A DNA stretch of 64,000 nucleotides from Thalia democratica (lineage: Eukaryota): the NCBI GenBank assembly GCA_965202585.1, contig OZ241829.1, forward strand, positions 68,572,001 to 68,636,000, read 5' to 3'. The position numbers are program-made. Shown here piece by piece: positions 15,001-45,000 of the stretch; position 1 is the stretch's first letter; every line of letters begins with the position of its first letter.

Positions 15001-18000
15001 TTAAGATTTTAAATAGTAATTTTGTCTATAAACTAAACTCTTTATAAAAAATATATATCTACTAAACTAGATAAAATGTTTAGTTACTAAACTGTCTGTG
15101 TAAAAGTATTTATTCTAATTAAAACTTGCCTTAAAAATACAAAATTCATAATTTTTCATTATACAAAAAAAACTTCGAACTATTAAAAATCATTCAATGT
15201 CTGTTATTTAGTCTGTGTTACAATAGCAATAAACAGAGAAAAATGAATATTAAACAAATATTGGTATGAAGCATTCATTGTTAATAATTAACTGAATAAT
15301 GTTTACAATTACTATGTCATTACCCTTTTGCTATTTTCTGCATAAAACCTGCATTATTTTTGTTTATTTAAACACTATTTTGAACATTTTTTCCTTGAAC
15401 TTGAGTGTTTATTTATTTGTGATTTTAAATGCATGTTATAGTGTATAGCTAATTGATTAGTAAACATTACGTACTTTGTAAGTTAATAAACCTACAATAT
15501 ATTTTTTAGTATTAGCTAGCTTGAAATGAACATACAGCTAGCTAAATATGTATACTATTATCATTTTTCATATATGATAATAACTACAATTTTATTGCTA
15601 CGTTGTATTGTCGTAGTCTGATGATGATTTTTGAAATTATTTTTATTTTGAACCTTTTTACACGTAGCTTTAGCTTACTTAATATTATTAATGTGTACAT
15701 TTGTATTAATATCAAAAAATACAAATTACTGTTTTTTTTTAATTTTTAACAGTTCTGATATAAAACAATACAACAAAAAGTCTTTTAATTATCTGCCACA
15801 CAATTATCAATTAAGTTATTACTTGCCTTGTTTAAAGAAAATATTTGTTTTATTTGTTTAAATAGGTACATAAAATCGCACACTTTTTTAAGGAGGCCTC
15901 TCAACTAATACGTCCAAAATATTATATTTTATGTATTACTAAGTAGTATAATCTCAATAATTTATTAACATAATTAGTTATCAAATACTTAAATACGAAT
16001 TAGTCTAGTTGTAAACATTTAATTAGTTTTTCTTTTAACATATGCACATAGTTTTTATATAAACAATAAACTTGTATATTTCTTTATAACAGCAGTGATA
16101 TCATAGTTTTGAATTTTGTGCTTCAGTGAAAGAGTAAAACAGTACTTTCTAAAATTATGAAAAACCTGAAAATGCTACTTTAGAAACTGAAGAGGTTGAA
16201 GATCCTAAAAAACAAAAGTATATATATCCAGCTGTGTTTTGTATAAAATATAATTTTTCAATACATAAAGTTAAAAAAATTAATCTTCACTTTAATATTT
16301 AATAAATTTTACGAGTAATACCTTTTGGCACGAGAATAAATAAAAACTTATCTTTAAATAAAAAAGCTGTTTTTTTCTTGAACTTGTACTTTTCCATCGT
16401 TCAAAGTTTCGTAAATTTTTCTATTTTGATTAAAATAAAGATTTGAAATTTTTTAAAATAATAATAAGAATATTACAATAAACACTAGCATATGACTTTT
16501 AAATAATTAGATAACAAATACCTTTTTATATAGTAATAGAAGAAATATAACAATTATGTCAATTACAAATGATGAAATGAGTAAAAGTATAAAGTATTAA
16601 AAAAATTATTAAAAAAAAAAAACGAATAAAAGTTTATTTATAGAACTTAAAGTTATGTAACAAAAACTTTCAAACTTATATCAAAACCAAAACTGTTTTA
16701 AATATAATAATAAAGTGAATAAAAACTGGAAAAGACAATAAAAAATCGCAAAAACTCAGAACTCTATTTTATATATATTTTCAAATTTCCGTCATATAAT
16801 AAACATTATGTCTATAACATGAAACATTTTTAATTAAACAAGAATAAGGACTTCAAATGCTAGGGTAAAAAAATTAAAAACAGTAAATAATTATCATCAT
16901 AAAACAAATTACCGTATATACTTTCATATACTGGTCCACTTTGCTGTTTGTTTATTTTTAAATAAAGTAACATTTAAAAATCAAAAAACAACTTAAACTG
17001 ATTGTATTAAAACAAATATGTTGATTTTAAATCTTACTCATGTAAGAAAAAAAATGTGCTACACTTATTTTAAAATCAAAACACTTTAAAGTTGTAATGA
17101 TAAAAGAATTATTGAACCTTATTTTCGTTTGTAAATGATATGTTTATTAAGAGTATTGTTTATAATAAAGTTAGAAATAAGACAGTTTACCTTCACATTT
17201 CTGATAAACATTTGTTATCTTCTTTTGTTGTTCTGATAAAAATTAAAAATAAGTGATTACAATAGTTTTCAGTTTAAATCTAAATATATAAAATAACAAA
17301 AGTTTTTGAAATACAGATTTTGTTACTCCTCTTCTTTGAAAAAATATAATTGAAATGATCACTGTAAAAATAATTCTAAAATATAAATTTTTGTAGTATG
17401 ATAACTATAAGGTTTTACTGGTTTTTATGTTTAAATTAAAATATATTAGTCTACGTTTAATATACTGTATTAAAATTAGTATAATTTTATTTAAACATAT
17501 CTATATAGCCAAATGTTTGAAGGATTAATTAAATAGTTAATAATAAAGCAATTTTGTGCTACTACTAATCTTGTTATTATTATTGATATATGATAACTTG
17601 TTCTAGTAAAACAAACAAAATAACAAATAAAATAATTTAGTCTTTAAAAGCGAAAAAATTGATTAAAACATTTGAAATTTTTTGATAAAGCTTAGTCAAA
17701 ACTTAAATCATTGTTGGTATTGTTAAGCACTGTCAAAATATTTTTAATTCCATGATCGAGACTAATAACATTTTCCTGAAAAATTATTAAATTTTTTTGT
17801 CATCTTTCGTTTCTCTGACTGGTGTCTTTTACAACAATAGAAAATAAGAAATGAAATAAAAATTATAAATATCACCAATATGATATGATCGCGTTGAAAG
17901 TCCAAACTACAAACCTATTATGACGTTGCAACTGTTTTATTTCTCAAAATGTCACACATTATCTGTAGATCATAGTTTTCAAATCTACAGTTTAACATTA

Positions 18001-42000: not shown

Positions 42001-45000
42001 GAGTCATTTTCTGACGCTTTCCATCCATTTTTCTAAATTTCTCTAAACTTTTCTAAAATTTCTAAATTCTTTTTATTCAAAAGCTTTCAAAATATCTGCA
42101 AAAGAAAGACTTATTTTAATGTGACATAGCACATAACTAGTTAACCACAAAAACTAGTTACAATTTTATAAAGTCAAATTAAACATATAAAAAGAAGCAA
42201 CAATAACAACAAAAAACTAAAGTTTAAAAAAAAATTAATGAGCATCTTATCATTGTGCACTTATACTATAAATGTTTATACTGATATAAACTTTCTTACA
42301 AAAACAGTCCTAAAACGTTTTTCTTTTAAATAAAATTAATCCAACACTTTTTAGCTAATGGAAAATTATAATAAATGTATTAACTAAACTAAACTTAGCT
42401 TGACTAGCAATATGTAGAAACTTTTTGGAGAAAAAATAAATCATTTTAAAATCTATTTGAAATTTTGCAGATTTTAATTATGTATTAAGCGTTGTTTAAA
42501 ATAAAAATACTTGTTTATTTGGCTTAACCATTTGGTGGCTAGTTGTTAGAAAGAAAACAAACAACTAAATTTATATTATACTAATCGTCAAAAGTACGCA
42601 CTAACCGTGCTAAGTACGCATTCAATTTGCGTACTTAAGCGGTAGTCTACTGTATTGTTATTTAATATAAGTATTTAGTACTCAAATTTTTAACTTTATA
42701 GTGAAGGTTTACAGATGACTTTAAAAACTAAAAGCATTTAAATTAAAATCGTTGTCAGTTAAAAAAAAAATCTCTAGTTTTAAAAAACTAAACTTACTCT
42801 TACGTTTAAAGTTAAATTACAATGTTTAAAATTTAGTGTTAATAATGATAGTTATAAACAAAAGGAAGTATTGATTCATTATACTTGTTTTTTTTTTATG
42901 GTGTTTATCTAACATCTTCACAATTAGTTCGGTTTTAATTACAAAATACGATTTGATCATATATCTTTAGTTTTAAAAAAACTTACTCATTTTAAAATAC
43001 TAGAAAAATTAACTCTGATATTAAGACAAAACTTATATTACAAACTTTAAAAGTATTTAAAAATTTTATAGACGGAAAGTTTATTTCGAATACAAGTTGA
43101 AGTAGCTTTTATCAAAGATGTAAAGTAAAATGATAAATTGTGTCGTATGGCTTTAATTAATAAAGCTATATGAAGAATTTTAGTAATAAAAAAGAGTTGC
43201 GTTTAATTTATCTACAAAACTAAACGTAGATAATTGTTTCTGAAAAGAGCTGTAGTAAAGAAAACATTACTTTTACTTTATAACCTATGTTTATGCAATT
43301 CAGCATAAAACAGTTACAAATACAAGTATTTTTCTAAAAAGACGTATGTTGTTCAAAATAAATAGTTATATTTTACGTTTGTTTAAGTAGTTTGCTTGTA
43401 TTGATAAAGTAAATTGATAACAAACTTAAAGTACGATACGAGTATTAAAAAATACTAAAAAAATAAAGTTCACTTAATCTAAAGGAAGCAATGACTCATT
43501 TTTTTTTTCGTTTGTGTTTTCTGTAGTTAGCTAAGGCTTAAAAATGCCTTTAGTTTTCCAATTTATAGAAAAATTAAAAACGTACAATAATGTTTTTTGG
43601 ATTATAAAAATAGTAAAAATTAATAAAAATACCTGTTACAAAGGGTGCTTTTATTACAAATGTATTAGTTGAAATTGACCAAATTAAATTATACGATCAA
43701 ATAGTGTTAAACTGTAAATCTGAAAACTATGATTAACAGATAGTATATAACAATAAAACAGTTTCTTTCAAAGTCTAAATATATAAACTTTCTGAGGTAA
43801 GGAATAAATTTCAAAATTTTGTAAGATTAATTTTATATTTAAACATTCTTAGGATACTTATTAAACGATATAAGTTATAAAAACAAAAACACTTTCTTTT
43901 AATTGTTAGTGTAGATATAACACAGTTAGTATTTAATTAGTTATTTTAAAACAACTAAAAATTCTTACTGTTTATACACTACGAAAATAAAGCGCACAAA
44001 ATATTTGGTTCTAGGAAATGTTGCACATAAAAACCTTTTGGTTATTGAGTCGCACACAACTTAGATACCTTTTATCCTGTTGACCGAAAATATACTGTAC
44101 GTTTATTCAAAACAATAAATAAAATATATTACTATAAAAAAAATTTTAAACTGTAAAGTGCGCGTTTGACGTGAAACATTCACTTTTACCTGTGTTCAAG
44201 GCGTTTTATCTTCACATTAACCCTCACTGTAGTTTAAACCAAGTAAAAATTATTATATTCTTCGTAAAAGCAGTAGTTTATTAAGCGAGAAGATAAAGAC
44301 GCTCAAAATATTTGGTTCTAGGACCTGGTGCACGAAGAACCTTTCGGTTATCGAGTCGCACATCACGGATACCTTTTAATGTCTTGTCCAGGACAATACT
44401 ATGTTTTATATATTGGCCTGCTAAAAAATTATACTTTGTTGTTACCATTATAGTGATAATTTCAATGTTCGATGTTAAATATTAAGTCCATAACCTTTAA
44501 TAAAAATAACAGTATTTTTGTTATGTCTAATTTTTGTACGTTTAGTAAAAACATTTATAAACAGTCGTTTTATTTGTAGAATTATCTACTATAAACGACG
44601 TAATGTTCGATTTTTTAAAGTTTATTGGATTTTTCCGAATAAATTTTTTTTAGTCATTCTTGGTAAATAAAATATATTTATATTTAAGTTATAAATATAT
44701 ATCTTGAAGTAAAATGTCATTACCATTTAAATAAAGAATAGTTTTCTAAAACGTAAAAGTTTCTTATACTAGTTTGTAATTAATATTTTAAACTTGACAT
44801 ATAAAAGTTAACTGACTAGAAGACTAATGTAATATCTAGTCAAAATAAATGAGATTGATTACTAAAATTTATATTAAAATAGCACTTATTTTTCTTTAAT
44901 TGAAGCTTTTGTTTTAGTTAATCGGATTTATTATAACTAAAAATCTATAAGTAAACTACTGTAAAAAAAACGCTCATAGGTACTTATTTTTGTGAAAAAT

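What the first reader, a model, noticed from the sequence alone, without database searches (positions are those of the whole stretch)
17900..43780. ~26-kb nested palindrome housing a BTB gene family
Seen: A1 and B1 on the minus strand mirror B2, B3 and A2 on the plus strand around a ~1-kb spacer (~32.6-33.7 kb). The B upstream region occurs three times, and B3 is fused after ~110 nt to A-type upstream DNA. The coding BTB parts look far more similar between arms than the outer non-coding arms. Inference: an old inverted duplication reworked by secondary duplication and deletion, with selection or arm-to-arm gene conversion on the genes, i.e. a birth-and-death locus.
Basis: partly seen in the sequence, partly recalled or inferred. 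Interest (0 to 1): 0.68.

Follow-up and report, generated by a model that had tools for sequence, protein, structure and literature searches.

The report
Decayed inverted duplication of BTB genes
A real but old and eroded 26-kb inverted duplication in an AT-rich animal genome carries five copies of a little-known BTB-domain gene family, none with an intact reading frame, so it is an ordinary gene cluster caught while dying.

Summary
The palindrome is real (17960-43742).

A2 and B1 each carry one in-frame TAA. A1 has a -1/+1 indel pair enclosing a TAG. B2 and B3 are truncated and frameshifted. Intact 451-521 aa homologues exist only in unnamed ENA records.

- **Arm age:** outer arms and all three B upstream copies differ by K2P 0.23-0.28, which fits one old event.
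- **A cassette:** this 2.4-kb block is younger throughout (upstream 0.093, dS 0.128, 3' flank 0.175). That indicates arm-to-arm conversion or re-copying, not selection alone.
- **B1-B2:** purifying selection (omega 0.27) is enough to explain their coding similarity; conversion is neither needed nor excluded.
- **Age of the lesions:** frames stay open 173-237 codons beyond each lesion, and A1/A2 show no stop despite 66 C-terminal differences (P=0.009-0.035). The inactivations are therefore recent and independent.

This is a birth-and-death locus of a known kind. Interest is modest.

The parts
17960..19356 (.). Outer left arm. Non-coding, mirrors 41572-43742.
   Evidence: 75.5% and 79.2% identity. 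K2P 0.284 (CI 0.243-0.322) and 0.236.
19357..23343 (.). Left-arm-only segment, 3,987 nt. The right arm has about 90 nt at this point.
   Evidence: One search finds no partner. Pfam hits: 0 of 21 ORFs scanned inside the palindrome. No convincing terminal repeats.
23344..24735 (.). Mid left arm. Mirrors 40091-41482.
   Evidence: 73.7%. K2P 0.272 (CI 0.239-0.307).
24736..25357 (.). Left-arm-only 622 nt at the 3' edge of the A cassette.
   Evidence: Alignment.
25632..27167 (-). A1, a BTB-family gene copy. It is disabled by a -1 indel in a T run (~26274), a TAG at 26210-26208 in the shifted frame, and a +1 indel in an A run (~26184).
   Evidence: tblastn to P0001 covers residues 2-511.
27168..27776 (-). 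A1 upstream non-coding part of the homogenised A cassette.
   Evidence: K2P 0.093 to 37682-38294 (CI 0.069-0.121).
27777..28992 (.). A1-B1 intergenic DNA, absent from the right arm.
   Evidence: no partner; junction analysis.
28993..30504 (-). B1, a BTB-family gene copy. It has a single in-frame TAA at 29709-29707 (codon 266); the frame then stays open for 237 more codons.
30505..32644 (-). B1 upstream region. The proximal 1.2 kb is shared with B2 and B3; the distal ~1 kb is shared with B3 only.
32645..33695 (.). Central spacer, 1,051 nt.
   Evidence: The one ORF scanned there has no Pfam hit.
33696..34919 (+). B2 upstream region (proximal part only).
34920..35436 (+). B2, a 5' gene fragment of about 170 codons. 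It has a TAA at 34968-34970, a +2 insertion at 35107-35108, and loses homology at ~35429.
35450..37563 (+). B3 upstream region (distal and proximal parts). Mirrors 32644-30505.
   Evidence: K2P 0.233 (CI 0.211-0.257).
37564..37680 (+). B3, a stub of about 38 codons with a 1-nt deletion, fused to A2 upstream DNA.
37682..38294 (+). A2 upstream non-coding part of the homogenised A cassette.
38295..39821 (+). A2, a BTB-family gene copy. It has a single in-frame TAA at 39297-39299 (codon 335). A1 has TAT there, and B1, P0001 and P0002 have tyrosine.
39822..40083 (+). A2 3' flank, the outer edge of the A cassette.
   Evidence: K2P 0.175. Identity falls 86, 84, 79% towards the edge.
40091..41482 (.). 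Mid right arm.
41572..43742 (.). Outer right arm. It includes a right-only stretch of about 0.8 kb (41871-42663).

Best explanation
An ancestral two-gene cassette (A-type and B-type single-exon BTB-family genes of about 505 codons) was copied in inverted orientation long ago, giving a palindrome of roughly 26 kb. The B region ended up in three copies at about the same time.

The arms then drifted apart to about 24-28% divergence and picked up arm-specific indels. Deletions cut B2 to about 170 codons and B3 to about 38 codons, fusing B3 to the A2 upstream DNA. The 2.4-kb A cassette (gene plus ~600 nt upstream plus ~260 nt downstream) was later homogenised between the arms, most likely by one or more gene-conversion events, strongest over the 5' BTB-coding part.

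The genes stayed under purifying selection for most of this time. Recently each of the three full-length copies took an independent disabling hit.

- **Shown:** the layout, the divergence classes, the lesions and the omega values.
- **Inferred:** the order of events, conversion as the homogenising mechanism, and that the lesions are real alleles rather than assembly errors.
For: **Layout.**

**One age for the arms and B upstream regions.** K2P is 0.284, 0.272 and 0.236 for the arm segments. It is 0.240, 0.241 and 0.252 among B1/B2/B3 on 1,151 shared columns, with shared-state sites 109/108/99.

**A cassette is younger at neutral sites.**
- dS is 0.128 (bootstrap CI 0.089-0.174); 11 of 127 four-fold sites differ.
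- Upstream K2P is 0.093 (CI 0.069-0.121) and 3' flank K2P is 0.175.
- Fisher tests against 615/2700 arm differences: synonymous sites 34/290, p=6e-6; non-coding flanks 93/864, p=8e-16.
- The ~600 nt upstream of B show no comparable conservation (windows 0.62-0.87).
- Differences within the A cassette are patchy: 1 and 2 per 150 nt next to bins of 13 and 17. The longest identical run is 96 nt, P=0.005 under a uniform model.

**Selection.** Omega for A codons 1-334 is 0.38 (CI 0.22-0.72; p=0.0013). Omega for B1-B2 is 0.27.

**Lesions are independent.** Each sits at a different place, and the other copies plus the intact homologues P0001/P0002 carry a sense codon there.

**Lesions are recent.**
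- Frames remain open 173, 191 and 237 codons after the lesion (chance 1e-7 to 1e-8), while the other two frames hold 11-25 stops.
- The A1/A2 C-terminal 519 nt carry 66 differences and no stop in either copy. The expectation is 3.3-4.5 stops, P=0.009-0.035.

**Standard genetic code.** The BTB copies end in TAG, eIF2B-epsilon in TAA, and the two long neighbouring ORFs in TGA.
Against: - The 3' edge of the A cassette is a gradient (86, 84, 79% identity), not a step. Both edges coincide with structural breaks between the arms, so a single copy-and-paste repair event fits as well as classical conversion.
- There is no GC enrichment in the homogenised non-coding DNA (GC 0.19-0.21), so no signature of GC-biased conversion.
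- Omega in A codons 335-end is 0.92 (CI 0.52-1.97). It differs from the middle region (p=0.0003), although intact paralogues P0001/P0002 evolve equally fast in both regions (0.68 against 0.65 identity). This would fit older lesions, in tension with the open-frame result.
- For B1-B2, 0 of 32 four-fold sites differ. This hints at conversion there too, against the reading that selection suffices.
- Both A1 indels lie in homopolymer runs, the usual place for assembly errors.
- No reads, no second haplotype and no orthologous locus could be examined.
Confidence: 0.7

Rival explanations
1. The A cassette was not converted piecemeal. It was re-copied once from one arm into the other by gap repair or a secondary duplication that replaced everything between B3 codon ~38 and the mid arm. 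The same event created the B3 deletion.
For: Both ends of the high-identity block coincide with structural discontinuities: the B3/A2-upstream junction at ~37680-37692 and the left-only 622 nt at 24736-25357. The whole block, coding and non-coding, is younger than the arms.
Against: Divergence inside the block is uneven: upstream 0.093, 3' flank 0.175, patchy 150-nt bins, and a longest identical run with P=0.005. Identity decays smoothly to arm level at the 3' edge. Both fit repeated short tracts better than one event. The B3 stub is more conserved than its upstream DNA (13 of 112 differences against an expected 0.206, p=0.009), so B3 was a constrained gene for a while.
Confidence: 0.18
2. Selection alone explains the pattern. 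The coding parts are similar only because the proteins are constrained, with no exchange between arms.
For: Omega is below 1 in the N-terminal two thirds of A (0.38) and in B1-B2 (0.27). B1-B2 dS of 0.16-0.18 overlaps the flanking K2P of 0.24.
Against: A1-A2 synonymous sites, four-fold sites (11/127), 607 nt of upstream DNA and 257 nt of downstream non-coding DNA are all far less diverged than the arms (p=6e-6 and 8e-16). The B promoters in the same palindrome show no such conservation.
Confidence: 0.07
3. Assembly artefact: two haplotypes or collapsed repeats were joined head to head, so there is no real palindrome.
For: No tool result supports this. It stays open only because no reads were available to check the arrangement.
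Against: Arms are 74-90% identical and carry kilobase-scale arm-specific segments and different gene lesions. That is far beyond allelic divergence. Three neighbouring ORFs of 1979, 743 and 709 codons are uninterrupted, so the consensus quality is good.
Confidence: 0.03
4. The copies are not dead. The truncated BTB-containing products (265-334 aa), or full-length protein made by stop read-through, are the functional output.
For: All three full-length copies are cut at codons 266-335, while the N-terminal part shows omega 0.38 and the downstream frame stays open. P0008 (262 aa) is a similarly short homologue found elsewhere. The A2 TAA is followed by CAA CTA, which matches a leaky-stop context that I recall from memory and did not test.
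Against: A1 needs two frameshifts, not read-through. B2 and B3 are plainly decayed. Omega of 0.92 downstream argues against strong function of the C-terminal part. There are no expression data.
Confidence: 0.1

Closest known systems
Large sex-chromosome palindromes of primates and mice, kept alike by arm-to-arm gene conversion (PMC8327919, passages read; PMC8981503 and 10.1101/800185, abstract starts in the search listing; the Y-chromosome P1-P8 work is recalled)
   Same: Inverted arms of ~10-15 kb around a short unique spacer. A multi-copy gene family sits in the arms. There is evidence of exchange between arms (the A cassette).
   Different: Those palindromes are defined by arms >8 kb at >99% identity (PMC8327919). 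Here the arms are 74-90% identical, exchange is confined to 2.4 kb and is itself old (K about 0.1), and the genes are disabled. There is no GC-bias signature. Chromosome and expression are unknown.
Lineage-specific expansions of BTB adaptor families evolving by duplication and loss, such as MATH-BTB in C. elegans and grasses and BTB-BACK-Kelch in vertebrates (PMC1257465, passages read; PMC4091423, abstract start only; work on adaptive evolution of nematode MATH-BTB genes is recalled)
   Same: An N-terminal BTB domain with a variable C-terminal part. Clustered paralogues with fragments and pseudogenes. The C-terminal part evolves faster than the BTB part.
   Different: The C-terminal ~380 residues match no Pfam family and no solved structure. 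The family was found only in unnamed ENA records: 9 hits, 10 hits and 34 representatives of 1.84 billion. The cluster seen here is tiny and inverted rather than tandem.
BTB-BACK-Kelch (KLHL/KBTBD) CUL3 substrate adaptors
   Same: Length (~505-520 aa) and an N-terminal BTB domain. The nearest language-model clusters are arthropod BTB/BACK/Kelch families (score 0.90-0.92). The best PDB matches to the BTB part include KBTBD4, KBTBD2 and gigaxonin.
   Different: No member of alignment A1 (12 rows: 8 homologues and 4 window ORF pieces) has a BACK or Kelch Pfam hit at E<=5. hhalign self-comparison finds no internal repeat (best off-diagonal E=0.73). The C-terminal part alone scores below 0.9 in the atlas. 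No structure model could be made.
Duplication / inverted-triplication / duplication rearrangements formed by template switching (PMC11293582 and PMC4352052, abstract starts only)
   Same: One segment (B upstream plus 5' coding) is present three times within an inverted duplication. All three copies are equally old, as a single complex event would give.
   Different: Copy order here is (-)(+)(+), not the inverted middle copy of the classical structure. The events are ancient, so junction microhomology cannot be read with confidence.

Membership tests
BTB/POZ domain superfamily | Pfam PF00651 match above the gathering score | tested here: met
   A1 30.4, A2 27.8 and B1 26.6 bits against a cut-off of 20.5. 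10 of 12 alignment members match; the two that do not are C-terminal pieces.
BTB-BACK-Kelch (KLHL/KBTBD) adaptors | BACK domain after the BTB domain | tested here: not met
   No PF07707 hit in any of 12 members at E<=5. The PDB profile search matches only profile positions 33-135.
BTB-BACK-Kelch (KLHL/KBTBD) adaptors | C-terminal Kelch-repeat beta-propeller | tested here: inconclusive
   No Kelch Pfam hit and no internal repeat by hhalign. Atlas leads to Kelch clusters score 0.90-0.92 for the whole protein but 0.82-0.85 for the C-terminal part alone.
BTB-BACK-Kelch (KLHL/KBTBD) adaptors | Binds CUL3 and recruits substrates | not testable with these tools
   No assay was possible and no complex prediction was attempted.
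Conversion-maintained large palindromes (sex-chromosome type) | Arms longer than 8 kb | tested here: met
   Left arm 17960-32644 (14.7 kb); right arm 33696-43742 (10.0 kb).
Conversion-maintained large palindromes (sex-chromosome type) | Arm-to-arm identity above 99% | tested here: not met
   73.7-89.7% by segment. The best 100-nt window is 99%.
Conversion-maintained large palindromes (sex-chromosome type) | Evidence of arm-to-arm sequence exchange | tested here: met
   Neutral divergence of the A cassette is 0.09-0.18 against 0.24-0.28 in the arms. It is limited to 2.4 kb.
Birth-and-death multigene family | Paralogue types older than the local duplication, with copies lost as pseudogenes or fragments | tested here: met
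   Tree: (A1,A2) is sister to (P0001,P0002) and B1 lies outside, support 100/99-100/100. Five of five local copies are disabled or truncated.
Inverted triplication by template switching | Triplicated segment with an inverted middle copy, formed in one event | tested here: inconclusive
   The three B copies are equidistant, but the orientation order is - + +.

The most novel reading that the evidence does not exclude
The three full-length copies are not simply dead. Each has exactly one independent hit, at codons 266-335, just after the BTB-plus-linker part. That part is still under purifying selection, and the downstream frame has been kept free of stops. The locus may therefore be selected to make truncated, BTB-only 'decoy' adaptors, with occasional read-through or reinitiation giving the C-terminal part. 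This would be repeated, convergent domain loss in a substrate-adaptor family, kept in step by exchange between palindrome arms.
Probability: 0.1. Interest if true: 0.55.

Novelty: new member of a known kind. Interest (0 to 1): 0.3.

Why it matters
**As a structure.** This is a small, well-resolved example of how an inverted segmental duplication ages. Most of it diverges freely, one gene cassette is homogenised between arms, deletions trim other copies, and the genes finally die one by one. That is textbook birth-and-death evolution and would not surprise a specialist.

**Two points of modest value.**
1. The gene family itself is unnamed in every source searched. It is an animal BTB family of about 510 residues, found only in unnamed ENA records, whose C-terminal two thirds match no Pfam family or solved structure.
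2. All three full-length copies carry one fresh, independent lesion while their frames otherwise remain open. Population data could show whether this is a family-wide loss of function in progress or a tolerated truncation.

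Tried and rejected
- **Altered genetic code to explain the in-frame TAA codons: rejected.** TAG, TAA and TGA all serve as terminators of good ORFs in the window, and ORFs of 1979, 743 and 709 codons are open under the standard code.
- **Introns hiding the stops: rejected.** The window copies are colinear with the intact 451-521 aa homologues across the lesions.
- **Assembly error for the A1 indels: thought unlikely, not excluded.** About 10.3 kb of neighbouring long ORFs carry no frameshift.
- **Transposon or virus origin of the arm-specific segments: no support.** 0 of 21 ORFs scanned inside the palindrome have a Pfam hit, and no convincing terminal repeats were found in 19000-25500.
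- **RNA genes: none found.** Rfam gave 0 matches at gathering score and there are 0 tRNAs.
- **Kelch or BACK identity of the C-terminal part: not shown.**
  - No Pfam hit at E<=5.
  - The PDB profile search matches the BTB part only.
  - hhalign self-comparison gives a best off-diagonal E of 0.73.
  - The atlas search on residues 225-511 scores below 0.9.
- **Taxon of the window: not resolved.** The eIF2B-epsilon ORF has close hits (70-90%) only in unnamed ENA records and 24-34% identity to all other hits, named or not. A BNIP2/CRAL-TRIO gene next door suggests an animal, on the recalled premise that the BNIP2 domain is an animal one.
- **GC-biased conversion signature: absent**.
- **Locating the PH_34 exon: failed.** None of the 10 ORFs tried matched.
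- **Collections not searched.** Orthologous loci and other copies of this palindrome therefore stayed unchecked.
- **Paper supplements were not consulted.**
- **No spliced model was joined.** The BTB copies are single-exon, and the exons of the neighbouring gene were scanned one by one.

Full report
**Setting.** The window is 64 kb with no N runs. GC is about 21-30%, apart from a few coding stretches.
- It is eukaryotic and probably from an animal. On the minus strand at 96-13758 lie exons with BNIP2 and CRAL_TRIO_2 domains (1684-1938 and 294-569) and two long acidic ORFs (5026-10965 and 11527-13758, no Pfam match).
- An uninterrupted eIF2B-epsilon ORF lies at 49480-51609.
- The eIF2B-epsilon protein has close relatives (70-90%) only in unnamed ENA records and 24-34% identity to all other hits. 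I could not place the organism.
- I do not take the contig for human.
- Rfam and tRNA scans found nothing.

**Observation.** The palindrome is real.
- Self-blastn and the repeat finder (41 inverted pairs in 15000-47000, 25 shown) give mirror pairs from 17960/43742 inwards to a 1,051-nt spacer at 32645-33695.
- From the spacer outwards, the left arm (minus strand) holds B1 upstream (32644-30505), B1 (30504-28993), 1.2 kb of intergenic DNA, A1 upstream (27776-27168), A1 (27167-25632), and then non-coding arm.
- The right arm (plus strand) holds B2 upstream (33696-34919), a B2 fragment (34920-~35436), B3 upstream (35450-37563), a B3 stub (37564-~37680), A2 upstream (37682-38294), A2 (38295-39821), and then non-coding arm.
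- Arm-specific segments are 19357-23343 and 24736-25357 on the left, plus about 0.8 kb at 41871-42663 on the right.
- The junction between the B3 stub and A-type upstream DNA falls within about 10-15 nt, about 115 nt after the B3 ATG.

**The genes.**
- A1, A2 and B1 have a Pfam BTB domain near the N-terminus.
- They are colinear, without introns, with homologues of 451-521 aa that have no in-frame stop. These were found only in unnamed ENA records: 9 hits, best P0001 at 73% identity; 10 hits with a profile.
- The C-terminal 173 residues of A2 find only 34 of 1.84 billion representatives at E<=0.001, and 19 of those are shorter than 330 aa.
- Beyond the BTB domain nothing matches Pfam or any solved structure.
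- A language-model search points to arthropod BTB/BACK/Kelch clusters at 0.90-0.92. The C-terminal part alone scores 0.82-0.85, and hhalign finds no internal repeats.
The family is therefore a BTB protein with an uncharacterised C-terminal part; Kelch-like is only a lead.

**None of the five copies is intact.**
- A2 has one TAA at 39297-39299. A1 has TAT there, and B1, P0001 and P0002 have tyrosine.
- B1 has one TAA at 29709-29707, where A2 and P0001 have lysine.
- A1 has a 1-nt deletion in a T run (~26274) and a 1-nt insertion in an A run (~26184), 90 nt apart, with a TAG at 26210-26208 in the shifted stretch.
- B2 has a TAA at 34968-34970 and a 2-nt insertion at 35107-35108, and it stops matching B1 after codon ~170.
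- B3 is a stub of about 38 codons with a 1-nt deletion.
- An altered genetic code is excluded, because all three stop codons end good ORFs here. Introns are excluded by colinearity with the intact homologues.

**Ages.**
- Non-coding arm segments differ by K2P 0.284 (CI 0.243-0.322), 0.272 (0.239-0.307) and 0.236.
- The three B upstream copies are equidistant (0.240, 0.241, 0.252 on 1,151 shared columns), and sites shared by each pair number 109, 108 and 99. The third B copy is therefore as old as the palindrome. A single complex event is possible but cannot be shown.
- The A cassette is younger throughout: upstream K2P 0.093 (0.069-0.121), dS 0.128 (0.089-0.174), four-fold sites 11/127, 3' flank 0.175 (0.118-0.236).
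- Against the arms (615 differences in 2,700 sites), synonymous sites (34/290) and non-coding flanks (93/864) are both lower, p=6e-6 and 8e-16.
- The B promoters show no such conservation, so constraint on regulatory DNA is an unlikely cause.
- Differences within the A cassette are patchy (bins of 1 and 2 next to bins of 13 and 17 per 150 nt; longest identical run 96 nt, P=0.005). Identity declines smoothly to arm level at the 3' edge.
- I read this as arm-to-arm gene conversion, probably more than one tract, centred on the 5' half of the gene.
- A single re-copying event that also produced the B3 deletion is a serious rival, because both block edges coincide with structural breaks.
- There is no GC enrichment in the converted non-coding DNA.

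**B1-B2.**
- The coding part is 91-97% identical against roughly 62-87% upstream.
- NG86 gives dS 0.18 over 170 codons or 0.16 over 168 codons (CI 0.07-0.28), with omega 0.27. This overlaps the flanking K2P of 0.24 (Fisher p=0.35).
- Purifying selection therefore suffices. However, 0 of 32 four-fold sites differ, so conversion there is not excluded.
- The B3 stub is also more conserved than its upstream DNA (p=0.009).
- B2 and B3 thus behaved as constrained genes for much of their history and were truncated later.

**Selection and timing of death in A.**
- Omega is 0.27 (codons 1-150), 0.47 (151-334) and 0.92 (335-end).
- For codons 1-334 omega is 0.38, below 1 at p=0.0013. The C-terminal part is not below 1 (p=0.87).
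- Non-synonymous change is 2.3 times higher in the C-terminal part than in the middle part (p=0.0003), with equal synonymous change (p=0.57).
- Intact paralogues P0001/P0002 show no such contrast (identity 0.68 against 0.65, p=0.58). Both A1 and A2 contribute derived changes (12 and 16, with 17 unpolarised). Taken alone, this suggests old lesions and a neutral tail.
- Against that, the tail holds 66 differences and no stop in either copy. Random substitution would give 3.3-4.5 stops (P of none 0.035 with uniform targets, 0.009 with AT-biased targets).
- Its only indel is an in-frame 9 nt.
- The post-lesion frames stay open for 173-237 codons, against 11-25 stops in the other frames.
- My reading is that the whole frame was translated until recently, the C-terminal part was evolving fast, and the three lesions are fresh and independent.
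- The tension between the two signals is real. It leaves room for the truncated-product reading given in the section on the most novel reading.

**Phylogeny.** (A1,A2) is sister to (P0001,P0002) and B1 lies outside, all with support 100/97 or better. The tree used 20 rows. P0008, P0010 and the other short hits were left out. The A and B types therefore predate the local duplication, as birth-and-death evolution expects.

**Comparison with known systems.**
- The structure works like a small, aged version of the conversion-maintained palindromes of mammalian sex chromosomes. It fails their defining criterion of >99% arm identity (PMC8327919, passages read).
- The family fits the pattern of lineage-specific BTB expansions (PMC1257465, passages read).
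- Membership in BTB-BACK-Kelch is not shown.

**Limits.**
- No eukaryotic genome or read collection was available.
- Paper supplements were not consulted.
- No search was made for earlier descriptions of this particular family beyond, which returned nothing specific to it.

**Verdict.** It is a new example of a known kind and of modest interest.

Noticed in passing
window 96-13758, minus strand: A large multi-exon gene. Exons with CRAL_TRIO_2 (294-569) and BNIP2 (1684-1938) domains lie downstream of two very long acidic, low-complexity ORFs (5026-10965, 1979 codons; 11527-13758, 743 codons) that match no Pfam family. This looks like a BNIP2/caytaxin-type protein with a giant disordered N-terminal extension. 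The exons were scanned singly and not joined.
   Followed up: partly
window 49480-51609, plus strand: An uninterrupted eIF2B-epsilon ORF (GC 0.43 against ~0.25 around it). Its close relatives (70-90%) are all in unnamed ENA records, and identity to every other hit, named or not, is only 24-34%. This suggests a fast-evolving or poorly sampled lineage.
   Followed up: partly
window 45975-46691, with related copies near 53164-53434: A 717-nt near-perfect foldback that is 92.8% self-complementary. Partial copies about 75% identical lie 7 kb away, and further self-complementary stretches sit at 52494-52690 and 53376-53664. This looks like a foldback or MITE-type repeat family.
   Followed up: no
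window, one ORF among those at 14470-15858 or 44284-63673: One short ORF matches Pfam PH_34 (E=0.00038). I did not locate it; none of the 10 ORFs tried matched.
   Followed up: partly
protein P0008 (unnamed ENA record, 262 aa): This homologue ends at about the same point as B1's premature stop. Its last ~11 residues look, by eye, like a frameshifted reading of the family's conserved motif. Broken or truncated copies may therefore be transcribed elsewhere too.
   Followed up: no
window 39297-39305: The premature TAA of A2 is followed by CAA CTA. This matches a leaky-stop context that I recall from the read-through literature (recalled, not tested).
   Followed up: no
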